A stretch of 27,004 nt of DNA from Alphaproteobacteria bacterium (GTDB lineage: Bacteria; Pseudomonadota; Alphaproteobacteria; Rickettsiales; UBA8987). The stretch is from the NCBI GenBank assembly GCA_003531345.1, contig DQGZ01000228.1, positions 1-27,004 on the forward strand, written 5' to 3'. Below the pieces are notes generated by a model. It was not told the origin of the DNA. It worked only from the letters and a program-made list of their open reading frames with translations, and searched no databases. Below, one piece after another: positions 6,936-18,232 of the stretch. The position numbers and the translations under genes were made by a program. Positions within the stretch are counted from its first letter, which is position 1; each line of letters starts with the position of its first letter.

Positions 6936-8261
6936 ATGACTAATCAAAACCCATTTTTTACAGCAACATTTGAAGAAACCGATGCGGAGTTAAAAGCCGC
7001 AATAGATGGCGAGCTTAGCCGCCAGCAAAACCAAATTGAGCTTATCGCCTCTGAGAATATTGCGTCAAAAGCAGTTATGACAGCTCAAGGAAGTGTTTTC
7101 ACTAATAAATATGCCGAAGGTTATCCAGCTAAAAGATATTATGGTGGCTGTGAATTTGCTGACAAAGTAGAGCAACTGGCGATTGACAGAGTTTGCAAAT
7201 TATTTAATGCTAAATATGCCAATGTTCAGCCTAATTCTGGCTCTCAAGCCAACCAAGCAGTGTTTACAGCCTTAATAAAACCTAATGATACAATATTAGG
7301 GCAGTCTTTAGCGGCAGGCGGACATTTAACACACGGTGCCGCACCTAACCAGTCTGGCAAATGGTTTAACTCCATTCAGTATGGCGTTCATAAAGATACT
7401 GGGTTGTTGAATTATGAAGAAATTGAAGAGCTGGCACAAAAACATAAACCTAAATTATTAATTGGTGGTTTTTCGGCTTATCCAAGAGTAGTTGATTGGG
7501 CAAGATTACGCAAAATAGCTGATTCTGTTGGAGCATTCTTCCTTGTTGATATGGCGCATGTTGCAGGTTTAGTAGCGGCAGGTGAGTACCCTTCCCCACT
7601 TCCATATGCTGATGTGGTAACCTCAACTACACATAAAACTTTACGCGGTCCTCGTGGTGGCATTATCTTATCAAACTTCCCTGATAAAGTAGTGCGCAAA
7701 ACAGAAAAAGGCACTGAAATTACATTGGCTTCTGCAATTAACTCAGCAATTTTCCCTGGAATTCAGGGCGGGCCACTTGTTCATGTAATTGCTGGTAAAG
7801 CAACAGCTTTCAAAGAAAATTTAGACCCTTCATTTAAAGTTTACGCTAAGCAAGTAATTGAAAATGCTCGTGCATTAGCAGAAACATTAATTAAGCGCGG
7901 AGCTGATATTGTTTCTGGCGGAACTGATAACCACATAGTATTAGTTGACCTTCGCCCTAAAAATCTAACAGGCAAAGCAACAGAAGAGTCATTAGAGCGA
8001 GCAGGTTTAACTTGTAACAAAAATGCTATTCCTTTTGACCCACAACCGCCTTTTGTTACTTCTGGGATTCGTTTAGGCACACCTGCTGGAACAACTCGTG
8101 GTTTTGGTAAAGATGAATTTATTCAGATTGGTAATTTAATTGGCGATGTATTAGACGGGTTAGCTAAAAACCCTGAAAATAACAGTGAAGTTGAAGCGAA
8201 AGTTAAGAAACAGGTGGAAAGCCTTTGTGCCAAATTTCCTATCTACGAAAAGAGTTTTTAG
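6936..8261 (+). CDS. glyA: Serine hydroxymethyltransferase
   Basis: [25 protein letters not shown] motif [14 protein letters not shown]; start at 6936 (or 6906), not the TTG at 6855. Confidence 0.98.
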
Positions 8262-9105
8262 TCCTAATTTCTTCAACAATCTGTTCATAGGTTTTTGTTT
8301 CTGTTCTCCTTATTTTACAAAAGCTAAAACCCTTTTGAGATAATAACTCCTCAAAAACTTCCGATGTTGTAACATCTGTGTTGTTTGCTAAACTAATTAC
8401 CAGCATTTTTCTTAGAATGGTTTGCCCTCCAGGAAATTTCTTACTTTCTGCAAACCCTTTAGTAGCTAGATATCCACAATCTGAAAGACTTATTAACAAA
8501 CCCACAAAAGTCATTCCGCTAGCATTTTTATACTCGTTAACTTCTGCTCCCAAAGCATTATCTCCTGTTATAACAAAAAAGTTTGATTGCTGGTTCTGTG
8601 CTATAATTTCTATAATTTCCTCATCCCCCAGCCCTGACCCTTTCATTCTCCTCTTAAGTATTCTCGTAGCCTGATTTTTATCGTTATGCTTTGCATTTAT
8701 TTCATAAATACGCTCTAATCTTTCCCGAGGCATAATATTTTCTGCTAAAAAAATATTTTCAAAATTTTGCCTAATAATTTCTAATATGCCTTGATCAACT
8801 TTATTATTAACACCCCTTTTTTTACCAGCCCGATCAGCAGAACCAAGTAATTCACACGCAACAATTTTAGGAACTACTGCTTTCATCCCTAAATCAGATA
8901 AAACCTCATCAAAAATATTAAAAAAAGAAAGATCGTTAGATTCAGCATCAAATCTTTTATAAGGGTCACGTATATCTGTTTCAATTTTAATGTAATGTTT
9001 AAATGGTAATGTAAATTTTCTAAATGCCTCAGAATCTATAATTAGATAATTCTGTCCTGATAAATAATCAATATCTTGAACTTCTATATCTTCTATTGTT
9101 AGCAC
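8239..9105 (-). CDS. Putative PIN-like domain nuclease
   Basis: Acidic quartet in PIN order: [33 protein letters not shown]; GTG start; convergent 23-nt overlap with glyA. Confidence 0.55.
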
Positions 9106-9128: not shown

Positions 9129-9441
9129 TTACCTTAAATTCGGTCTTAGTTGATATCTTACTGTATTTATTTCTCTTTTCCCTTTTTTAAAAGTAATGTT
9201 TAGAATCTCCCCTTCTTTCACAAAACTAAGGTTACCTAAAGCCTGCCAACCAAATTGAGACATAGTCTTGTTATAAAAATCATTTATAAATTCTTTATCT
9301 CAAAATAGTCTAACTCCTCCGATGTTTCAAGTACGAAAATCCTATCTACAAATAATCACCCAGAAGAACTTTTTGAAGAGCAAAAAAATAATCTTAAAAT
9401 TTACTAAAGAGTTACAACACGACAACCACACAAAATAGCAT
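9129..9441 (-). pseudogene. Probable decayed gene of a small alphaproteobacterial exported hypothetical protein
   Basis: Open 3' frame DKEFINDFYNKTMSQFGWQALGNLSFVKEGEILNITF...VRYQLRP; upstream pieces lie in two other frames with internal stops, including a hydrophobic MLFCVVVVL start at 9441. Confidence 0.4.
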
Positions 9442-9467
9442 CTTTCCTCTTAGTAATCCACAATCAG

Positions 9468-9737
9468 CTATTTTCCAGCTACTTTTTTAACCAGCCTGTT
9501 AAGCCTGCTTTTAAGCCTTGCAGCATTACCTGCTTTTATAATTCCTTTACCAACTGACTTGTCGAGCAATTTTTGTGCAGCAACATAAGCAGTTTTACTT
9601 TCATTTAATTTACTTGCAGCAGCATTAGTACGAACCTCTTTAACCGCTGACCTTAGCTTGTTACGAGCCGTAGTATTACGAGCATTTTTCTTAAGGCTCT
9701 GTCTGTATGCTTTCTCTGCTGATTTATGATTTGCCAT
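9468..9737 (-). CDS. rpsT: 30S ribosomal protein S20
   Basis: MANHKSAEKAYRQSLKKNARN...KGIIKAGNAARLKSRL. Confidence 0.96.
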   Translation of the reverse strand: MANHKSAEKAYRQSLKKNARNTTARNKLRSAVKEVRTNAAASKLNESKTAYVAAQKLLDKSVGKGIIKAGNAARLKSRLNRLVKKVAGK

Positions 9738-9774
9738 GGCAAACTCTCTATATAAATTTGTTAAAATGTGGCAC

Positions 9775-9803
9775 TTTCTATGATTATTTTTCCTCCCTGT
9801 CAA
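9775..9803 (-). promoter_or_regulatory. sigma70 promoter of rpsT
   Basis: TTGACA (9798-9803), 17 nt, TAGAAA (9775-9780). Confidence 0.55.
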
Positions 9804-9828
9804 GCTACTTCTGCTTAAGAAACGGATT

Positions 9829-12800
9829 TTATACCTCTTCTACTTCTTTTTCATACTTGGTTCCCCCATCTTTACCATGGCAGTTTTTGTACTTCTTGCC
9901 GCTTCCACAATAACAAGGTAGGTCATCTGCACTAGAATGAGCATTCTTCTTAAAGAAGTTCTTTTTTTCCTTTTTTGTTTCTTCCTCAGCAGAAGTCATA
10001 TCGCCTGTATTAGCTTTAGTTTCTGATTCTGCTGCTTTTTCCTTTGCTTCAGCAATCAAAGGCTCTTTTTCTGGATTTTTCGGAGATTTTTCAGGTTCGC
10101 CAACTGATTTTTTAGCGGTTAATTTATCTTTTGCGGTATTAATAACGGTTTTACTGAGGTCTACATTGCCATCAAATGGACCATTGACCATTTGCCTTGC
10201 CATGTCCCTATTTGCTGAGTAACTTCCTTCCTGCAATCCTGAATTATCTGCTTCATTGGCTTTTAAACTTATCATTTCAGGAATAGCAGATGAGGGTTCA
10301 TTTTGCTGCGTCTCTAACACTGAATTATTGGGAACTGGGTTATTAATAGAAACAGGGGAAGTTATATCATCAGACACAGCACTAGTATTACTAGCATCAG
10401 AACCAGCAAGCACTTTCTCTTTTATTTCATTAGGCAATACCTCAACAGAACTATTCACTGTTAATTGGGCAGAGTTAGGAGCAGTGTTATTTACCACATT
10501 TTCTGCCTCGTTATTAGAAATTTGTTGTGGTGTGGCAGGGGGGTTATTTTCAATAGGACCATTTTGCAAAGAGTTATTTATAAAAGATGTTTCTACTGGT
10601 GCTGGCGCTGCCATTGAGGTAAACCCTGATGACATACCTACAGAAACCCCTCTATTAATACCAGACTGGTAGTTTCCACTTGAGCTACTAGAGCCACCAC
10701 TTCCAGTATTTTTGAACGCATTTAGTCTTTCCATATATCTTTCTGCTTCTGTTGGAGCATCATCCTGTTTAACAAGCCCTGACAAGCTTACCCCCTGAGT
10801 TGGTGCTGCCTGTTGTTGCGGTGCTGGTACTGCTACCGCCGCCACACTTGCCTCAACTGTAGCTGCAGCAGTGAAAACTTCTGCTGGAACTGTCTCAAGC
10901 ACTGTTTCCTGATTTTGTAGTACGTTACTTGCATCCTGAATTGCAGGCTGGTATTGAACTTCCTGATTGTTAGGAACTTCTTCTGTCAATTGAGTTGGTG
11001 CTGCCACTAACACAGACTCTGACACTCTATTATCTGCATCTGTCTCAATATCAATATTTTGAATATATTGCTGCTCAGATTGATTTAAAACAGCACCTTC
11101 TTCCTGATCCTGAGCCGCTTTATCTGCTCCTATATCTACTTCACTAACTGATATTGTCTGACCAATAACAGGAATATCAGCGCCCTGCTCTATCTTTCCA
11201 TCCTCAAGTTTAATAGGCGTTTCGTCGCCTGCTAAATCTTCAGGGGCAATATTACCAACATTAGGAATGTTAATCTGATTTGTCCTTGAAACAGTGTTTT
11301 CATAGGTATCTGCTGGCTGACTTTTTTCCACTGAAACTTTAATATTATTATCTGGGGCTTCAGGCTTGCTACTAGGTTTAAATACAAGGTTATTTAGTTG
11401 GCTTGGGGGTTTTTGTGGCAACACAACGGAAAGCATTTTTTCTGGCTCTTTCTGCAAAGGCTCTGCCTGTGCTGAAAGGTCCTTTAATACCTCCTCTAGG
11501 TTTCCAATTTCAGGTATAGCTGGCACTTCTATATTTAACCCAGCCCTAGAAACTGTTTCTGGGGGCTTACTATTTGCTTCAGCTAAGATTTCAGGGTTAT
11601 TATCCTGAGGGTTTTTCTCATCTTTTTTGCCCTTATTTTTTGGTACAACATTTAAAGGCTTAACTGGCTGAGTTAATGGTTTAGCTACATTCTGAACAGG
11701 TGGAGCGCCACCACCTCTATTTTGAAGGTCTTTTGAATTGTGGGTCAGGCTTGGGGCATCTGTTTCACCAGAAGTTTCCCCTGTAGTTTTTTTGCCTTTT
11801 ACTTTTTTTAAAGCTGCTGCTGCATATTTCCCCCTTAAAGCTTCTTCTGTTGTTTTTGGAGTTTCTTCACCTTCTTTTGGCTTTGGCTTTTCATGCTTGA
11901 AGAAGATGCTTTTTTTCTCTTTCTCTTCTTTCTTTCCTTTTGCAGCGACTTTCTGAGGCACTGGGGCTGCAACAGCTAGAGCTTGTGGCAACACTTCTGG
12001 AGCAACATTATCGACTACCTCTTTTGGAGTTTCAACAACTGCGGTAACTTCACCGCCTGATGGTAGGGTTGCATCTTCAGGTTTTTTCTCTTCTGGTTGC
12101 GGCAAGGCACCTGCCAACACTTCTTTTTCCTTATTCTCCTGCTGTTCGCGCTGTTTTATAAGTGCTTCAACCGCCTCAGGCCCGCCTTCATTGAATGCCT
12201 CCATTAATTCTTTGTCTTTCAGCATTTGCTGCATAAGTAAAGCTGGCCCTGCTGCGGCAACAGACATATATGGGCTGCCACCACCACTTTGGAAGGCATT
12301 ATCAATTGGAGAATCATCAATGGTTGTAGCGCGATTTTGTCTGCCTGAAACATTACCTTTTGCGGCGTATGAATTCATACTTGGAGAGTCACCCCCCCCT
12401 AATGCAGGAACTTTTATCCTGTCACTTGCCCTTGAAGGAGCGGGCTCCATAAAAGTTTCAGCTCTTCTTACTGGCTCTGCTGAAGCATAACCCTCTTGAG
12501 GAGAATAATACTCTGATACAGACTGAATCTTAGGTGCTACCGAACTGTGGCCGTTATCCCCCACCCCTGCTCTTTTCCGCTCTTCTTCTGCTCTTTTCCG
12601 CTCTTCTTCTGCTCTCTTCCGCTCTTCTTTTTCTTTCAGGTTTGCGTCTATCTGTTTCAGAATATCCTGTGCTTTTGCATCATATTGTTTCTGACCTGCC
12701 TGTAGGCTATCCCAGGTTGGATTTTCTTTATATTGTTCATCCATTATCTGTTTTACAGATTTTTTATATTTGCTCTGAAGCTCGGACTCTTTCTTCTTAA

Positions 12801-15800
12801 GCTCGGCATAAACCCGTGCTTTTACGCTAAGTGCTGCAGTTGCTTCGCCCTGATTGAATGGCGAACCAAAAGAGGTTGCCAGCATCTCATCAAAAGTTCT
12901 GCGCTTCTCAGTTTTTATGCTGTACTCACCATTCTTATCAATACTCACTTTTTCCAATGTTGGGCTGCCTGCCCTTCTTATTTTATCTGCGGTGGCGATA
13001 AATGTTCCAGATTTTCCGCTTGTCAACCCAACATCAAATAATGTTCCCATACCATAGAAGCTGGTATTCTGCTCACCTGATGAATAACCAGAAAGCCCAC
13101 CACCGCCGCTGCCCATCCTGCCATCAATCTGCTGTGACTGACCAAATAATTTTGGTGGAGCAATACCCCTTGGATCAAATGGAGAGAGTTTTTGTGCCAA
13201 AACTGGAATCTTGGAAACAAATGCCCCTGTAAGTGTATTTAATACTATCCACACCAGAACAGCACCCATCAGATATGCAAACATCTCCTCCTTGTTTTCG
13301 TAGATATGCAGGCAGAATTTTGTGCAGGTTTCTGCTGTTGGGTTAAAATTATCAGGCGCACCAGCCACCCCTACACCATAAGGCGGGTCAAAGGCTGGAC
13401 AATGTTTTACACAACGTGGAAATTCCTGCTGCACAGGAAAACCACCTGTACCCGTGTCGCCATTTGTTTTCCGGGTAGAATCACATACTGGCGCAAGCGG
13501 AACTGGCGGGTCTTCACAAAATAGCCAGTTAGGTTGCTTGTAAAGCTGCTTGGTATTAGTGGCGTCTGTTGCTGCGGGGTCACCCTCGCCTATGAAAGCA
13601 TCACCATCTGGTATACCAATTTCATCACGATAAAGGTCTACAAAAGCCTGATGTGTACCCACCGCCTCAACTGCTTTAATACCTTTAACTACTTTTCCTG
13701 AATATGGTGGTGCTGCTACGTTTATTCCAACCCTCATAAGATCGCTTATTTCTGCTATTTCTGAGTCCTGTAGTGCGGTTTGCAAGTCCTGGTTATTTGG
13801 GCGGTTTAAAGCTTGGAAATCAGGTTTTTTATTGAAATCATTATTTGCCTTCATCAGTGCATAGGCGGTTACAAGCCTTTCTTCTTTTTTCTGTATATAT
13901 TCTTCCCTCTGTTTTTTTGTTATGTAACCACATTCTTCTATCACTGGGTTACAAAGTTCAGCACTTGTACTCATAGTTTCCCTGCCAGCTATGTTTGCAC
14001 CAAATACGCTTTTATAATCTGGTGGCACTTCATATAAAGGCTCCAAAAACCCTGGAGCGCGCATCTGGCTTTTTTCAGCGCCTGAGTTTGAGGTAAACTC
14101 ATACTTCTGATCACCCACTTCATACCTTGCCAGCATGGTCAGCCTGTCTAAAGTTGTGGCGGAAGATAATACCATCAGGAAGCCAAGAACCAGAACAGGC
14201 TGTAAAGCATAACTTATCAAATTTGATAACCAGCCACGGAACATTCTTTCTGTTGTTTTAAATAAGGCAAAGGAAATAAAGATAGGCGATAACATCATCA
14301 TGAAGCTTAATGCCATCAATGCGGTTACATAAGTCCACAATATCTGCATAAAGGCTATGAACATTGTGGTCACACCAAGCATCAAGAAAACCCCAAGTAT
14401 AGCACCACCACCAACGCCCCAAAGCATCAGCGCCATCATCACCGAACCTATTGATTTCACCCTGTCTGCACCTACTATGCTATTAAACAGCGCATCTATC
14501 TTGCCCAGAACACTCTGGAAAGGTTGCCTGCATTCCTCAGGCGGAGTATTTTCATCACAAAGTTCTTTTAAGCTACCCCTGCCATTGCCCAGCGGTTCAT
14601 TCTTAAATTTGGTTGGGTAGGTAGTTTTGTCAACCTGCATCGGTGGGTAAACTGGAATTGCACCAAAAGCGTATGAAACATATTCTCCATAAGGGGAAAT
14701 GCTAACTGTAGATTGCCAACCATCAGGCTGACATTTAGGAATAGAATATAGTTTTTTCTTCTCTGGAATATACCTGTAGTCATTAGGGCAATAAGTATAA
14801 ATTATACTAAACCCACCAAATCCCCCCCCGCCTGTATTTATAGCAAAAAAACCCTGACCTTCCTTGAAAACAGGATAAAGCTTATATTTTACCCCATTTA
14901 CAGCCCTTGGCTCAAGTGTCCATTGCATTGCTGGTATTCTGTATGGTTTGTATTTTATAGGGTCTACTACATCATAATCTGGTGGACCCTGCTTGGTTTT
15001 AAATGGTCCTCTTTCTGTACCATCTGGCATTTTAACATAATAATCCTGATCTGGTTTTATTGACTTCCAGACCTCCCCATCTTCTGCGAGTATTTTATAT
15101 TTCCCAGAAGAATCTTTTTCAGTTATACTATAAGCCAATTGCCCACTATCTGTATAATATGGCTGTATGTGGGTTAACATATCAGAAAATCCATCAAGAA
15201 AATTCTGAAAACCCTTATGTACAAAGTAAAAGGCACGCTCTGCATTAACAGCAAAGAATAAAATAAAAAATACTTTCAGAAATCTCTGTGGTGCTTGTCT
15301 TAAAGGCTCGTCTGTCAGGTCAAACATTATGGCAAGCCCATAGAACATTATGTATATCACCACAAACGCATACAATATCTGAAACACCCATAGTAATATG
15401 GTGCAATACACCCTGAACATTGAATCCAGAATTATACTTTGCACTACGCAAACTATACCGCTTAATAAAAACTGGCTTTGGATTTTTTTACTATAACCCT
15501 CAAGGGCATCACTTCCTGGAAGTGGACAATATTTAGGGTCTTCTATCCCCATCAATATATTATCTGTCTTGAAAAGGTTTTTATTTATATAAAGATATTT
15601 CTTACCACTTACTTCTTCATAATAGCATATCTTTCTTCCGCTATCGTCTCTGCTCTCCTGAATACTTATCCTATCATCTGCTATATTTATACCCGCCCCG
15701 TCCTTACCAGTAATATCTATGGGTTTAAAATCCTGTGCCGCAGATGAAAAGCTAAACATCACCACAAGCAGGACTGTAAAAAAAACTATGTATATATGTT

Positions 15801-15807
15801 TTAACAT
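9829..15807 (-). CDS. virB6: Giant VirB6/TrbL-family type IV secretion membrane protein with long low-complexity tail and C-terminal SEC-C motif
   Basis: N-terminal signal/TM segments; VirB6 core ...TALMALSFMMMLSPIFISFALFKTTERMFRGWLSNLISYALQPVL...; late TM followed by FVSKIPVLAQKL; C-terminal CYCGSGKKYKNCHG; 7 nt downstream of virB4. Confidence 0.85.
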   Translation of the reverse strand: MLKHIYIVFFTVLLVVMFSFSSAAQDFKPIDITGKDGAGINIADDRISIQESRDDSGRKICYYEEVSGKKYLYINKNLFKTDNILMGIEDPKYCPLPGSDALEGYSKKIQSQFLLSGIVCVVQSIILDSMFRVYCTILLWVFQILYAFVVIYIMFYGLAIMFDLTDEPLRQAPQRFLKVFFILFFAVNAERAFYFVHKGFQNFLDGFSDMLTHIQPYYTDSGQLAYSITEKDSSGKYKILAEDGEVWKSIKPDQDYYVKMPDGTERGPFKTKQGPPDYDVVDPIKYKPYRIPAMQWTLEPRAVNGVKYKLYPVFKEGQGFFAINTGGGGFGGFSIIYTYCPNDYRYIPEKKKLYSIPKCQPDGWQSTVSISPYGEYVSYAFGAIPVYPPMQVDKTTYPTKFKNEPLGNGRGSLKELCDENTPPEECRQPFQSVLGKIDALFNSIVGADRVKSIGSVMMALMLWGVGGGAILGVFLMLGVTTMFIAFMQILWTYVTALMALSFMMMLSPIFISFALFKTTERMFRGWLSNLISYALQPVLVLGFLMVLSSATTLDRLTMLARYEVGDQKYEFTSNSGAEKSQMRAPGFLEPLYEVPPDYKSVFGANIAGRETMSTSAELCNPVIEECGYITKKQREEYIQKKEERLVTAYALMKANNDFNKKPDFQALNRPNNQDLQTALQDSEIAEISDLMRVGINVAAPPYSGKVVKGIKAVEAVGTHQAFVDLYRDEIGIPDGDAFIGEGDPAATDATNTKQLYKQPNWLFCEDPPVPLAPVCDSTRKTNGDTGTGGFPVQQEFPRCVKHCPAFDPPYGVGVAGAPDNFNPTAETCTKFCLHIYENKEEMFAYLMGAVLVWIVLNTLTGAFVSKIPVLAQKLSPFDPRGIAPPKLFGQSQQIDGRMGSGGGGLSGYSSGEQNTSFYGMGTLFDVGLTSGKSGTFIATADKIRRAGSPTLEKVSIDKNGEYSIKTEKRRTFDEMLATSFGSPFNQGEATAALSVKARVYAELKKKESELQSKYKKSVKQIMDEQYKENPTWDSLQAGQKQYDAKAQDILKQIDANLKEKEERKRAEEERKRAEEERKRAGVGDNGHSSVAPKIQSVSEYYSPQEGYASAEPVRRAETFMEPAPSRASDRIKVPALGGGDSPSMNSYAAKGNVSGRQNRATTIDDSPIDNAFQSGGGSPYMSVAAAGPALLMQQMLKDKELMEAFNEGGPEAVEALIKQREQQENKEKEVLAGALPQPEEKKPEDATLPSGGEVTAVVETPKEVVDNVAPEVLPQALAVAAPVPQKVAAKGKKEEKEKKSIFFKHEKPKPKEGEETPKTTEEALRGKYAAAALKKVKGKKTTGETSGETDAPSLTHNSKDLQNRGGGAPPVQNVAKPLTQPVKPLNVVPKNKGKKDEKNPQDNNPEILAEANSKPPETVSRAGLNIEVPAIPEIGNLEEVLKDLSAQAEPLQKEPEKMLSVVLPQKPPSQLNNLVFKPSSKPEAPDNNIKVSVEKSQPADTYENTVSRTNQINIPNVGNIAPEDLAGDETPIKLEDGKIEQGADIPVIGQTISVSEVDIGADKAAQDQEEGAVLNQSEQQYIQNIDIETDADNRVSESVLVAAPTQLTEEVPNNQEVQYQPAIQDASNVLQNQETVLETVPAEVFTAAATVEASVAAVAVPAPQQQAAPTQGVSLSGLVKQDDAPTEAERYMERLNAFKNTGSGGSSSSSGNYQSGINRGVSVGMSSGFTSMAAPAPVETSFINNSLQNGPIENNPPATPQQISNNEAENVVNNTAPNSAQLTVNSSVEVLPNEIKEKVLAGSDASNTSAVSDDITSPVSINNPVPNNSVLETQQNEPSSAIPEMISLKANEADNSGLQEGSYSANRDMARQMVNGPFDGNVDLSKTVINTAKDKLTAKKSVGEPEKSPKNPEKEPLIAEAKEKAAESETKANTGDMTSAEEETKKEKKNFFKKNAHSSADDLPCYCGSGKKYKNCHGKDGGTKYEKEVEEV
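12568..12630 (-). repeat. 3 x 21-nt in-frame tandem repeat encoding EERKRAE units
   Basis: TGCTCTTTTCCGCTCTTCTTC twice exactly plus a third copy with 2 mismatches (plus strand). Confidence 0.9.
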
Positions 15808-15814
15808 TTATCTT

Positions 15815-18232
15815 TCAAACGCCTATTTTTTCAAAAAATAATGGCAGCCAGTCTTTTGGGTCTTGGGTAGTTTCATTTTTAGCATCATTCATCGCCTGAA
15901 CATTAACTGCAGTTGAGGAGAGCACAGAAAGCTCCTTATTAAGCCCTAATAGATTTAACTTACATATCACTGAATCAGTATTGTGCTTGAACAGGAATTG
16001 TCTGCTATTTTTGTTGAGACTACTAATTTTTGAATATTCTGCATTATTCAAACCGAAAATTTTCATATACCCTTCATCTGCCTGCGGGTTGGGAAGAAAA
16101 ATCTGGGTCTTAATGTTTTGGATCAAAGTGTTGGTTATCGAGCTTTTTTTTGCCTGCTCAAAAGACTCCGTAGCAAATATACATATGGAGTTCTTTTCTG
16201 TCAGCCTTTGCAGCCAAGATTCTATTCTGGGTAGGAACGCAGAGTTATCTATTAATTTCCATGCCTCATCTAAAACTATTATTGCTGGAGTTTCGCCATC
16301 TAAAGACATTTCAACAAGGTGAAGCAGATAAGACATTAACGGCATGGTAACCGCCCTGCTATCAATTATCCTAGATAAATCCATTGCCATTATTTTTTCA
16401 CTCCGCAACTGGCAATTATCTATATCATTGTCAAAACATGCGGCATAGGTTCCTTCACCATACCACTCACTTAAATTTCTTGCCGTTTCGCTTTCTTTAT
16501 TTGTCCATACTTGAGGAATTATGACCGAAAGTTTTCTCAACTCCTTTGGAAGCAAGTAGTTAAGTTTTATTGCCTCTGATATTTTCTGCCTATCTTCTTC
16601 TGAAAGTATATTGGTTATATGAGCATTCTCTTCCAGCTCATCCAATTCTATGAGATACTCAATCCACTGCTCAATAAATGCCCTGTTTTCAACTGTATCA
16701 TCTAACTGTAATGGGTTAAGTTTCAACCTGCCATCAGCTATCTCATCAAATGTATGGTAGTATTTGCCACCTATTGCATTTATGAAAATCTCTGACCCCT
16801 TATCTACTTCAAAATAATAGGTTTTAGGTCGGTATTTTTGCGCTTCAGAAACAAGAAAATTCATTAAAACCGTTTTACCAGCACCATAAGGGCCAATGAT
16901 TGTAGTGTGACCGTTTTTTTCATAATGGAAATTAAAGAAATATGGCGTGTTCTTTTCTGTATGAAATACCGTAACAGCGCTGCCCCATAAATTATCAGTC
17001 ATTTTTCCAGCAGGAAAATTGTATAGCGAAGCATATCCGCCTATTTTGTTGGTTACCAGATAGGTTTGCCTTCTTATAAAGTCAAAATTGGCTGGCATCT
17101 GGCTCCAGTAGCAATCTTCCATGAACAGGTCTTCCCTTATAAAAACTACTCCCAACTCCCTTAGGGCATCAACTGCCATTGACACGGCATTTTGCATTGC
17201 CCTTACGGTATTTTCCAGAACGGTAATTATTATCTGGTGCTGCCCATAGTCTGCAACACCTTTATTCTCTGCGTTGATTAACTCATTAAAGCCTGAAGCC
17301 TCTGGCAAACTCTTGGCGCCAGAAAGCTTGTATATATTTGCCTGATCAGAAAAAGCAGTTTCAATTTCTTTTCTACTCACAAAATCAAAACTTTCAGAAA
17401 TTATGAACTGTATAGGCAATTGCAGGAACCTGTCTATCTCCTTGGTTGAAACCTCCTGATATTCTTTCACACTAAGAACTGCGCCATAGTTTGCACCTCT
17501 TTTGCCATGAACCTGAATTGTGTTATATTGAAATATAACTGAGCGGGATGGAAGATCTTTTGACAGGTCAACAGGCTTTAGGGGAATATTTTCCTGCTTA
17601 AGATTCATTATTTTACTACAAAAACTCATAATCTGAGAGTAATAAACCCCTCGCTTCTTTATTATTGAAAGCTTCTCTGCACCATAGCTGGCAAGATCTG
17701 CTACTATTTTATTAGTAACCTCATCAAGTTTCTTCGCTGCCTGATTAAGCGCTTTTTTACGACGCCTGAATTCTGAATTTATAAATAAAGTTTCAAAAAA
17801 TAATTTAGGATTAACAATAGAAAGGCTTTCGCCAGAAATTATAACTGAAATATATAACTCATTTACAAACTGAGACTTTAAGTCATTCCTAATCGCCCAT
17901 GCCTCGTGCATCTGCTTGCAGAAACCCTCCGCATACAAACCGCCCGTTGAAATATCACGCTTGTTTCGCAAGGTGTGCAGCCAGATAGCATACTCCTCGC
18001 CGTTAAGATTTTTCTTTATCGACTCCCTTATTATCTGCCTAAGCGGCGAAGAATTGCTGTCCCCATCTTCCCTTATAGTTTCAAAATTAAATCCCGTAAT
18101 CTTGATAACCTGCATCAATTCACCATTTTTGGTTAGAATTGTCTCTTCATCAAAATGGCAGGCGTAGGGCAAATATTCCGCAACATCAGAATGATATTTT
18201 TTTTCACTTTTCTTAAGGTTGGAGAATGCCAT
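15815..18232 (-). CDS. virB4: VirB4-family type IV secretion ATPase, Rickettsiales paralog-II-like
   Basis: LPYACHFDEETILTKNGELMQVIKITGF N-terminus, WSQMPANF, Walker A GPYGAGKT (16871-16894), Walker B IIVLDEAW, TQIFLPNP. Confidence 0.93.
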   Translation of the reverse strand: MAFSNLKKSEKKYHSDVAEYLPYACHFDEETILTKNGELMQVIKITGFNFETIREDGDSNSSPLRQIIRESIKKNLNGEEYAIWLHTLRNKRDISTGGLYAEGFCKQMHEAWAIRNDLKSQFVNELYISVIISGESLSIVNPKLFFETLFINSEFRRRKKALNQAAKKLDEVTNKIVADLASYGAEKLSIIKKRGVYYSQIMSFCSKIMNLKQENIPLKPVDLSKDLPSRSVIFQYNTIQVHGKRGANYGAVLSVKEYQEVSTKEIDRFLQLPIQFIISESFDFVSRKEIETAFSDQANIYKLSGAKSLPEASGFNELINAENKGVADYGQHQIIITVLENTVRAMQNAVSMAVDALRELGVVFIREDLFMEDCYWSQMPANFDFIRRQTYLVTNKIGGYASLYNFPAGKMTDNLWGSAVTVFHTEKNTPYFFNFHYEKNGHTTIIGPYGAGKTVLMNFLVSEAQKYRPKTYYFEVDKGSEIFINAIGGKYYHTFDEIADGRLKLNPLQLDDTVENRAFIEQWIEYLIELDELEENAHITNILSEEDRQKISEAIKLNYLLPKELRKLSVIIPQVWTNKESETARNLSEWYGEGTYAACFDNDIDNCQLRSEKIMAMDLSRIIDSRAVTMPLMSYLLHLVEMSLDGETPAIIVLDEAWKLIDNSAFLPRIESWLQRLTEKNSICIFATESFEQAKKSSITNTLIQNIKTQIFLPNPQADEGYMKIFGLNNAEYSKISSLNKNSRQFLFKHNTDSVICKLNLLGLNKELSVLSSTAVNVQAMNDAKNETTQDPKDWLPLFFEKIGV

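What the first reader, a model, noticed from the sequence alone, without database searches (positions are those of the whole stretch)
9871..9927. VirB6 carries a SecA-type SEC-C metal-binding motif at its C-terminus: possible link between Sec chaperones and T4SS
Seen: the 1992-aa VirB6 ends DDLPCYCGSGKKYKNCHGKD, a complete C-x-C-G-S-G-K-K-Y-K-x-C-H motif, in frame 14 codons before the stop. Established: this motif forms the C-terminal metal-binding domain of SecA, which binds SecB (and is reported to contact ribosomes); VirB6 is the inner-membrane channel subunit and Rickettsiales VirB6 paralogs have large extensions. I know of no described VirB6-SEC-C fusion but could not search for one. Inference: a long flexible cytoplasmic tether tipped with SEC-C could capture SecB-bound or nascent unfolded substrates and deliver them to the T4SS, a chaperone-hijacking substrate-recruitment route. 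This is the best candidate for an undescribed system in the window.
Basis: partly seen in the sequence, partly recalled or inferred. Interest (0 to 1): 0.82.

Follow-up and report, generated by a model that had tools for sequence, protein, structure and literature searches.

The report
VirB6 tail ending in SecA-type knuckle
An uncultured Rickettsiales bacterium from bioreactor sludge has a giant type IV secretion protein (VirB6) whose long floppy tail ends in the small metal-binding knob that SecA uses to grip SecB and ribosomes; the fusion is real, but it occurs in this one lineage only and its role is unproven.

Summary
The 1992-aa ORF at 9829-15807 (-) is a Rickettsiales-type extended VirB6. 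It has a Pfam TrbL hit, a fold match to R388 TrwI/VirB6 (Z 15.6), and lies directly downstream of virB4. Residues 1965-1977 form a complete CxCGSGKKYKxCH SEC-C motif (PF02810, above its cut-off). The chance expectation is about 1e-12 per window.

It is not an assembly artefact. Contigs from four separate runs cover the stop codon and the motif without any difference. Ten of the 13 shared codons differ synonymously from the genome's own secA.

The genome also encodes an intact SecA with its own knuckle, and SecB.

The fusion is a singleton. None of eight orthologues has it, and neither do 40 related genomes, 150 VirB6 representatives from 1.84 billion proteins, or 18 further loci. The orthologue tails are hypervariable.

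The knuckle keeps every metal ligand and the KKYK face. It lacks the Arg-Asn, Pro and hydrophobic flank residues that are invariant in 25 related SecA knuckles.

The tail's location is unresolved. Reporter-fusion topologies of canonical VirB6 place the C-terminus in the cytoplasm. The R388 structure and Anaplasma surface shaving point outside it.

My reading is a lineage-specific gain of a known portable docking module. A SecB-to-T4SS route is possible but unsupported. This scan had already noted SEC-C fusions on other enzymes.

The parts
9829..15807 (-). Extended virB6-like gene, 1992 aa (P0001)
   Evidence: ORF. Pfam TrbL at 72.2 bits. Fold match to R388 TrwI/VirB6 with Z 15.6.
15736..15807 (-). 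Signal-peptide-like N-terminus (residues 1-24; Ala24 is invariant in the orthologues)
   Evidence: Hydrophobic helix 2-19. A24 is invariant.
15484..15735 (-). N-terminal domain (residues 25-108) with the conserved Cys pair 61/94; likely periplasmic
13165..15477 (-). VirB6 helical core (residues 111-881), which superposes on 265 of 272 TrwI residues; it is interrupted by two large insert domains
   Evidence: AF2 model with pLDDT 79 and pTM 0.74. VIA-align maps model 111-881 onto 8rt9_F 2-273. Foldseek probability 0.99.
14518..15165 (-). Insert domain 1 (about residues 215-430), beta-rich, with paired Cys 340/359 and 417/426
13294..14130 (-). Insert domain 2 (about residues 560-838), with paired Cys 619/626, 764/775, 799/803 and 828/832
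13186..13293 (-). Last hydrophobic helix (residues 839-874), equivalent to the last TrwI helix; it either acts as a stop-transfer segment or forms part of the stalk
12988..13185 (-). Gly-rich segment after the last helix (residues 875-940); the last stretch conserved among orthologues
   Evidence: Alignment A1; invariant G889 and G934.
9928..12987 (-). Low-complexity tail of about 1020 residues (941-1960). It has no Cys, 75% disorder-promoting residues, and is not conserved in the orthologues. It contains the EERKRA x3 repeat at 12568-12627.
9871..9927 (-). SEC-C / SecA-like metal-binding knuckle (residues 1961-1979). Presumed ligands are Cys1965, Cys1967, Cys1976 and His1977, with Ser1969 and Tyr1973 also conserved.
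9832..9870 (-). 13-residue mixed-charge, acid-ending extension after the knuckle (DGGTKYEKEVEEV). Related SecA proteins end 2-4 residues after the CHG.
15815..18232 (-). virB4 (805 aa), whose stop lies 7 nt upstream of the virB6 start. The virB4-virB6 pairing is conserved in related MAGs.
9468..9737 (-). rpsT (ribosomal protein S20), the downstream neighbour. It is context only; the relatives have nuoF here instead.

Best explanation
This is a genuine, lineage-specific domain gain. An extended Rickettsiales-type VirB6 has a VirB6 helical core with two Cys-paired insert domains, followed by a roughly 1,100-residue disordered, hypervariable C-terminal extension. The tip of that extension has acquired a minimal copy of the portable SecA-like metal-binding knuckle.

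Shown: the fusion, its integrity, its uniqueness, and conservation of all metal ligands, the Ser, the aromatic residue and the KKYK face.

Inferred: the knuckle folds around Zn or Fe and acts, as it does in SecA and AscA/YecA, as a small basic docking knob at the end of a flexible tether. If the tail stays on the cytoplasmic side, the knob would hold it against an acidic partner such as SecB, the ribosome surface or anionic membrane. Its likely effect is on localisation or regulation of this one VirB6 paralogue. It is not a conserved part of the secretion mechanism.
For: The motif scores above the Pfam cut-off. Its best PDB match is the SecB-bound SecA peptide 1OZB_I.

Cys1965, Cys1967, Cys1976 and His1977, plus Ser, Gly, Lys-Lys-Tyr-Lys and Gly, are identical to the invariant columns of 25 related SecA knuckles. 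They are the only Cys residues in about 1,100 residues of tail.

The assembly is confirmed in four runs with 0 differences. The codons are unrelated to the genome's own secA, with 31 of 45 nt identical.

SecA with its MBD and SecB are both present. The SecB positions matching E. coli D20, E24 and E77 are conserved.

In the literature, the AscA MBD is enough for SecB and ribosome binding, and MBDs have been proposed as an evolutionary 'toolkit' found on at least 18 kinds of protein (10.1101/2020.07.21.215244; 10.1101/613315).

The last helix follows a Cys-paired, presumably periplasmic domain and is followed by Lys/Arg residues. This fits a stop-transfer segment that leaves the tail in the cytoplasm. 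Canonical VirB6 has a cytoplasmic C-terminus (cited in PMC7648143).
Against: No orthologue or other VirB6 carries the motif, so there is no comparative evidence of selection.

Arg(-4) and Asn(-3), invariant in 25 of 25 related SecA knuckles, are both Asp here. The invariant Pro between the first two Cys is Tyr. The hydrophobic residue after CHGx is Asp. The conserved DPxxPxTWGKVG lead-in is absent. The partner specificity may therefore differ or be lost.

In the assembled R388 machine only VirB6 helices alpha1 and alpha2 are in the membrane. Anaplasma extended VirB6 tails are surface-exposed. The tip may therefore not be in the cytoplasm.

No binding or metal data exist.
Confidence: 0.4

Rival explanations
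1. The tail is exported. As proposed for Anaplasma VirB6-3 and VirB6-4, the C-terminal extension is threaded to the cell surface or cleaved and released into a eukaryotic host. The knuckle would then act outside the bacterial cytoplasm. It could fold on metal in the host cytosol and bind ribosomes or acidic targets there, or it could simply form part of a basic, unstructured C-terminal translocation signal.
For: The C-terminal repeat regions of Anaplasma VirB6-3 and VirB6-4 are trypsin-accessible on intact bacteria, and cleavage and release have been proposed (PMC7648143). In the R388 cryo-EM structure only alpha1 and alpha2 of VirB6 span the membrane, and the remaining helices, including the hydrophobic alpha5-alpha7, form the periplasmic stalk (PMC9259494). 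The core of P0001 superposes on that structure up to residue 881. The tail is Cys-free, disordered and hypervariable, as expected for host-facing, fast-evolving sequence.
Against: A 36-residue hydrophobic helix following a periplasmic domain should stop transfer and leave the tail in the cytoplasm at biogenesis. A Cys3His metal site is typical of the reducing cytoplasm. The host is unknown, because the sample is bioreactor sludge. There is no evidence of cleavage.
Confidence: 0.25
2. The knuckle is a neutral passenger. It is a recent or incidental acquisition in a rapidly turning-over, low-complexity tail and has no role in secretion. The motif is intact only because it is young or because it is harmless.
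For: It is a singleton among all VirB6 proteins examined. Orthologue tails range from about 20 to about 1,900 residues beyond the core and share no sequence. The flanks conserved in SecA are absent. The synteny break at the 3' end (rpsT here, nuoF in relatives) suggests a local rearrangement that could have created a new 3' end.
Against: A 13-residue motif with 11 fixed positions cannot arise by drift. It shows no residual DNA similarity to the genome's own secA, so it is not a fresh copy of that gene. Every residue known to matter for metal binding is retained.
Confidence: 0.2
3. The cytoplasmic tether tipped with SEC-C captures SecB-bound or ribosome-nascent unfolded proteins and feeds them to the T4SS as a substrate-recruitment route.
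For: The evidence is the same as for the best explanation. In addition, SecB and its SecA-binding acidic residues are present, and transplanted MBDs do bind SecB and ribosomes in AscA.
Against: All the points against the best explanation apply. No T4SS is known to take substrates from SecB. VirD4, the usual substrate receptor, is present. The feature is absent from every orthologue with the same virB4-virB6 unit, so it cannot be integral to this machine. Arg(-4) and Asn(-3) are both replaced by Asp.
Confidence: 0.12
4. The fusion is an assembly or frame artefact, such as a chimera with a secA fragment or an indel in the A-rich tract upstream.
For: The genome is a fragmented MAG with 246 contigs at 73.6% completeness. 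A6 and A7 runs lie about 30 codons upstream of the motif. One assembly-graph branch occurs at 11664-11693 in run X1.
Against: Per-run contigs from four samples cover 9650-10200 with 0 mismatches and 0 indels, at depth 20 in X1. X2 and X3 contigs bridge the 11664-11693 branch. The same protein sits on a 44-kb JGI contig. Only 31 of 45 core nucleotides match the genome's own secA.
Confidence: 0.03

Closest known systems
Extended VirB6 paralogues of Rickettsiales (RvhB6a-e of Rickettsia; VirB6-3 and VirB6-4 of Anaplasma and Ehrlichia)
   Same: All have a TrbL/VirB6 core with expanded loops, a large hydrophilic and variable C-terminal extension, multiple virB6 copies, duplicated virB4, and a virB4-virB6 linkage (PMC2653234, PMC8035066, PMC7648143).
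   Different: No described member ends in a SEC-C knuckle. Here a single giant virB6 follows virB4 with no virB3 upstream. The tail is not built of long tandem repeats, unlike Anaplasma VirB6-4.
SecA C-terminal metal-binding domain (SEC-C, PF02810; PDB 1OZB, 1SX0/1SX1, 1TM6)
   Same: Both have CxCx8CH with the conserved Ser, Gly, KK(Y/F)K and terminal Gly, sit at the end of a flexible linker, and lie at the C-terminus of the protein.
   Different: Arg-Asn before the first Cys is Asp-Asp here. Pro between the Cys residues is Tyr. The hydrophobic residue after CHGx is Asp. There is no DPxxPxTWGKVG lead-in. Thirteen extra residues follow. The Pfam score is 30 bits against 36-48 bits for SecA in relatives.
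Non-SecA MBD proteins: AscA/YecA, YchJ, MBD-bearing methionine aminopeptidases, and the SEC-C+TPR glycosyltransferase-like proteins
   Same: The same portable knuckle is appended to an unrelated protein. In AscA it is sufficient for SecB and ribosome binding, and the idea of a 'toolkit' has been published. Same-order genomes carry N-terminal SEC-C proteins of about 680 aa.
   Different: Those carriers are soluble cytoplasmic proteins and keep the Arg-Asn flank. Here the carrier is a polytopic secretion-machine subunit with a tether of about 1,100 residues.
R388 TrwI/VirB6 (PDB 7O3V, 8RT9, 8RTD)
   Same: The seven-helix fold is shared; 265 of 272 residues superpose at Z 15.6.
   Different: TrwI has no insert domains, no long tail and no knuckle. 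P0001 adds a signal peptide and an N-terminal domain.
F-type TraG (an extended VirB6-like protein)
   Same: It has a VirB6-like N-terminal part with a large hydrophilic C-terminal domain that acts outside the donor cytoplasm in entry exclusion (as summarised in PMC7648143).
   Different: No sequence relation of the tails was tested, and no SEC-C motif is reported there.

Membership tests
TrbL/VirB6 (PF04610) | Profile match above the curated cut-off | tested here: met
   72.2 bits against a cut-off of 25.9, in two stretches. Genome scan hits at 52.1 and 32.2 bits.
TrbL/VirB6 (PF04610) | VirB6 helical fold as in solved TrwI | tested here: met
   AF2 model with pLDDT 79. Foldseek probability 0.99. 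VIA-align Z 15.6 with 265 of 272 residues aligned; the next unrelated hit has Z 8.7.
TrbL/VirB6 (PF04610) | Conserved Trp in the loop between hydrophobic helices (essential in A. tumefaciens VirB6 according to PMC2653234) | tested here: met
   W526 is invariant in the 8 orthologues and at least 90% conserved in 45 family members.
TrbL/VirB6 (PF04610) | Encoded with other T4SS genes | tested here: met
   virB4 lies 7 nt upstream. The genome also has a second virB4, a virD4 and at least 3 more virB6 copies.
Rickettsiales vir homologue (rvh) extended VirB6 | Rvh hallmarks: multicopy VirB6, duplicated VirB4, large VirB6 extensions | tested here: met
   Relatives are titled 'uncultured Rickettsiales bacterium'. 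The absence of VirB5 was not tested.
SEC-C / SecA-like MBD (PF02810) | CxCx8C(H/C) with the conserved Ser and aromatic residue, scoring above the gathering cut-off | tested here: met
   22.9 bits against 20.4 and 30.3 bits in the genome scan. Ser1969 and Tyr1973 are present.
SEC-C / SecA-like MBD (PF02810) | Flank residues invariant in SecA-type knuckles of this clade (Arg-4, Asn-3, Pro+1, hydrophobic +15) | tested here: not met
   Each is conserved in 25 of 25 related SecA tails. VirB6 has Asp, Asp, Tyr and Asp at these positions. The Pfam alignment starts at profile position 4.
SEC-C / SecA-like MBD (PF02810) | Binds Zn or Fe | not testable with these tools
   It is inferred only from the conserved ligands. 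ICP-MS or NMR on the peptide is needed.
SEC-C / SecA-like MBD (PF02810) | Binds SecB and/or ribosomes | not testable with these tools
   No usable computational answer was obtained (see Tried and rejected). A pull-down, MST or cosedimentation assay is needed.

The most novel reading that the evidence does not exclude
A T4SS inner-membrane subunit uses a very long disordered cytoplasmic tether tipped with a SecA-like knuckle to dock SecB or translating ribosomes at the secretion machine. This would create a chaperone-coupled or co-translational route into a type IV system.
Probability: 0.1. Interest if true: 0.8.

Novelty: new variant of a known kind. Interest (0 to 1): 0.35.

Why it matters
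How Rickettsiales T4SSs use their many extended VirB6 paralogues is an open question, as is where the long tails sit. A tail tipped with a module of known biochemistry (metal, SecB and ribosome binding) offers a concrete handle. The knuckle can only do its known job in the cytoplasm, so testing its metal state and partners would also report on tail topology. If it does bind SecB or ribosomes, it would be the first link between Sec-pathway chaperoning and a type IV system. Because the fusion is confined to one uncultured lineage, its general importance is probably small. It mainly adds one more, unusual, carrier to the list of proteins that have captured the SecA knuckle.

Tried and rejected
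1. Complex prediction with the genome's own SecB tetramer, Zn and tail residues 1950-1992 gave no verdict: score 0.00, partner pLDDT about 40, controls not run. It is not evidence either way.

2. The search for homologous proteins restricted to tail residues 1945-1992 scored only the query itself among 16 candidates. A 16-residue motif cannot reach significance against 5.8 billion sequences.

3. The first genome-contig scan with the single protein found nothing. The alignment-based scan named six relatives.

4. The metagenome scan with tail residues 1600-1960 found no relative. The scan with the orthologue alignment found 12 distant virB6 arrays, none with SEC-C.

5. A sequence search of the core against the PDB found nothing. 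The relation to TrwI appeared only by fold.

7. I tested whether secA and rpsT are neighbours in relatives, which could have explained a 3'-end capture. No S20 gene lies near secA or virB6 in 37 loci.

8. Literature searches for 'VirB6' with 'SEC-C', and for 'SEC-C motif' with 'type IV secretion', returned 0 papers.

9. The extra SEC-C hits in same-order genomes are N-terminal SEC-C proteins of about 545-707 aa unrelated to the T4SS. I rejected them as a source of insight into VirB6.
Full report
**Observation.** The window holds a 1992-codon ORF on the minus strand at 9829-15807. Bases 9871-9927 encode residues 1961-1979, DDLPCYCGSGKKYKNCHGK, followed by 13 more residues and the stop codon. 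Pfam finds TrbL/VirB6 (72.2 bits) and SEC-C PF02810 (22.9 bits against a cut-off of 20.4; profile positions 4-19). The six-frame genome scan scores the same site at 30.3 bits. Using the protein's own composition, the 11 fixed positions are expected about 2e-12 times per window, so the motif is not chance. The best PDB match of the last 43 residues is the SecA peptide crystallised on SecB, 1OZB chain I.

**Is it an artefact?** No.
- The window is contig C209 of a 1.48-Mb, 246-contig MAG at 73.6% completeness.
- The same protein sits on a 44-kb JGI metagenome contig.
- Four bioreactor-sludge runs hold the region.
- Their per-run contigs cover the rpsT upstream region, the stop codon, the motif and the adjoining tail with no mismatch or indel: X1 9300-11693 at depth 20, X2 9696-9952, X3 9701-10200, X4 9650-9937.
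- The one graph branch, at 11664-11693, is bridged by X2 and X3 contigs.
- The genome has its own secA (911-aa frame) with a canonical knuckle.
- Over the 15 core codons, only 31 of 45 nucleotides match between secA and virB6. Ten of the 13 codons that encode the same residue use a different synonymous codon.
- The tip is therefore neither a chimeric join with secA nor a recent copy of it.

**What the protein is.** The upstream gene (15815-18232) is virB4 (TIGR00929 at 616 bits). The downstream gene is rpsT. The genome also has a second virB4, a virD4 and at least three more virB6 copies, which are hallmarks of the Rickettsiales rvh system (PMC11077975; PMC8035066). The nearest genomes are titled 'uncultured Rickettsiales bacterium'.

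An AlphaFold2 model of residues 1-950, built from 45 sequences, has pLDDT 79 and pTM 0.74. It hits R388 TrwI/VirB6 with Foldseek probability 0.99. VIA-align superposes 265 of 272 TrwI residues at Z 15.6, mapping model residues 111-881 onto chain residues 2-273.

The core is therefore a full VirB6 helical bundle with additions:
- a signal-peptide-like N-terminus and a small N-terminal domain;
- two large insert domains, at about 215-430 and 560-838;
- a tail of about 1,100 residues.

All Cys residues outside the hydrophobic helices come in close pairs within the N-terminal domain and the two inserts. The tail from residue 868 has no Cys at all until the three in the knuckle. The tail is 75% disorder-promoting residues.

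**Is the fusion conserved?** No.
- Orthologues of the virB4-adjacent giant VirB6 exist in eight related MAGs and one metagenomic protein, with core identity of 31-57%.
- Conservation stops near residue 940. The tails range from a few tens to about 1,900 residues and do not align. None ends in SEC-C.
- In 40 related genomes, every one of the 17 same-family genomes has exactly one SEC-C hit, its SecA.
- Among the 150 best VirB6 relatives drawn from 1.84 billion representative proteins, only P0001 contains a CxCx8-9C(H/C) motif.
- Eighteen further loci from genome and metagenome scans have none.
- No close relative of the tail exists in the JGI metagenomes scanned.
- No paper in the library joins VirB6 or type IV secretion with SEC-C.

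The fusion is thus new but a singleton.

**How SecA-like is the knuckle?** I compared it with 25 SecA tails from related genomes. It keeps every invariant core residue: Cys0, Cys2, Ser4, Gly5, Lys7, Lys9, Cys11, His12 and Gly13, plus Gly3, Lys6, Tyr8 and Lys14.

It departs at positions that are invariant in all 25 SecA proteins:
- Arg(-4) and Asn(-3) are Asp-Asp.
- Pro(+1) is Tyr.
- The hydrophobic residue at +15 is Asp.
- The conserved DPxxPxTWGKVG lead-in is missing.
- Thirteen residues follow, where SecA ends within 2-4.

The N-terminal SEC-C proteins of same-order genomes also keep Arg-Asn. The metal site and the basic KKYK face therefore look intact, but partner specificity cannot be assumed to match SecA's.

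The genome's SecB is present (181 bits). It aligns with E. coli SecB so that the positions of D20, E24 and E77 are conserved. The role of these positions in SecA binding is from my recollection of the SecB literature and was not tested here.

**What the knuckle is known to do.**
- In SecA it binds Zn or Fe, SecB and ribosomes (10.1101/613315; PMC6620043).
- In AscA/YecA the same module is required for SecB and ribosome binding.
- The authors of that work note that 92 of 156 representative species have non-SecA MBD proteins of at least 18 functional kinds, and they call the MBD an evolutionary toolkit (10.1101/2020.07.21.215244).
- Earlier notes of this scan list the knuckle on deformylase, anSME, halogenase, GT41-like and E2-like proteins (these are unchecked leads). 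I saw SEC-C+TPR proteins myself in same-order genomes.
- 'SEC-C appended to X' is therefore a known pattern. VirB6 is a new and unusual carrier because it is a polytopic machine subunit.

*For a cytoplasmic tip.* A. tumefaciens, Brucella and H. pylori VirB6 homologues are reported with a periplasmic N-terminus and a cytoplasmic C-terminus (as summarised in PMC7648143). The conserved Trp loop (KTTERMFRGW, W526) is basic. The last helix (839-874) is strongly hydrophobic, follows a Cys-paired domain and is followed by Lys/Arg residues, as expected of a stop-transfer segment. A Cys3His site also suits a reducing compartment.

*Against a cytoplasmic tip.* In the assembled R388 machine only alpha1 and alpha2 of VirB6 cross the membrane, and the other helices, including the hydrophobic alpha5-alpha7, build the periplasmic stalk (PMC9259494). 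The last helix of P0001 superposes on the last resolved TrwI helix. In Anaplasma the C-terminal extensions of VirB6-3 and VirB6-4 are trypsin-accessible on intact bacteria, and release into the host has been proposed.

**Verdict.**
- Best explanation (0.40): a real, lineage-specific capture of the portable metal-binding docking knob onto the tip of a hypervariable VirB6 tail. If cytoplasmic, it acts as a tethered basic knob for SecB, ribosomes or membrane. It affects this paralogue only and is not an integral part of the T4SS.
- Rival (0.25): the tail is exported, and the knuckle works, or merely travels, outside the bacterial cytoplasm.
- Rival (0.20): the knuckle is a neutral passenger.
- Rival (0.03): an assembly or frame artefact.

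**Novelty and interest.** I rate it a new variant of a known kind (extended VirB6 plus a known portable module). Interest is moderate to low (0.35). The combination is undescribed and gives a testable handle on tail topology, but it is confined to one uncultured lineage and no functional evidence could be obtained.

Noticed in passing
L038:819-7019 (G022 contig C233); also L039, L041, L042: Same-order genomes carry proteins of about 545-700 aa that begin with a canonical SEC-C knuckle (GRNDPCPCGSGKKYKKC...). In G022 three of them lie in tandem. They look like the SEC-C+TPR glycosyltransferase-type proteins already noted elsewhere in this scan, and they are unrelated to the T4SS.
   Followed up: partly
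window 9468-9803 versus L023-L030: The virB4-giant virB6 pair is conserved in related MAGs, but the downstream neighbour differs. Here it is rpsT; in at least five relatives it is a convergent nuoF-like gene. A rearrangement breakpoint therefore sits right at the 3' end of virB6, where the new tip lies.
   Followed up: partly
window 12568-12627: A 21-nt unit is repeated three times (97% matches) and encodes EERKRA x3 (residues 1061-1080), a short charged repeat inside the tail.
   Followed up: no
window 11664-11693: In run X1 three unitigs meet at a shared 30-mer, and one 1973-bp contig ends here and continues into unrelated sequence. This is a branch in the assembly graph within the tail-coding region. 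Contigs from runs X2 and X3 bridge it cleanly.
   Followed up: partly
window 14518-15165 and 13294-14130: Two large insert domains are spliced into the VirB6 helical bundle. One is beta-rich (about residues 215-430) and one is mixed (about residues 560-838). Each has conserved Cys pairs and is confidently modelled. I did not search for their folds separately.
   Followed up: no
L001 and L043-L070 (secA 3' ends of relatives): SecA knuckles of this clade are preceded by a strongly conserved DPxxPxTWGKVGRN lead-in, with Trp and Gly at least 90% conserved. This is longer than the 19-position Pfam SEC-C model.
   Followed up: partly
window 8239-9105 (-): A 288-aa ORF downstream of rpsT has no Pfam hit at E <= 0.01.
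   Followed up: no
G000:C164:9539-9565: A weak third SEC-C-like hit (16.3 bits, E 0.027) lies in a 51-aa open frame of the same genome. It is probably noise.
   Followed up: no
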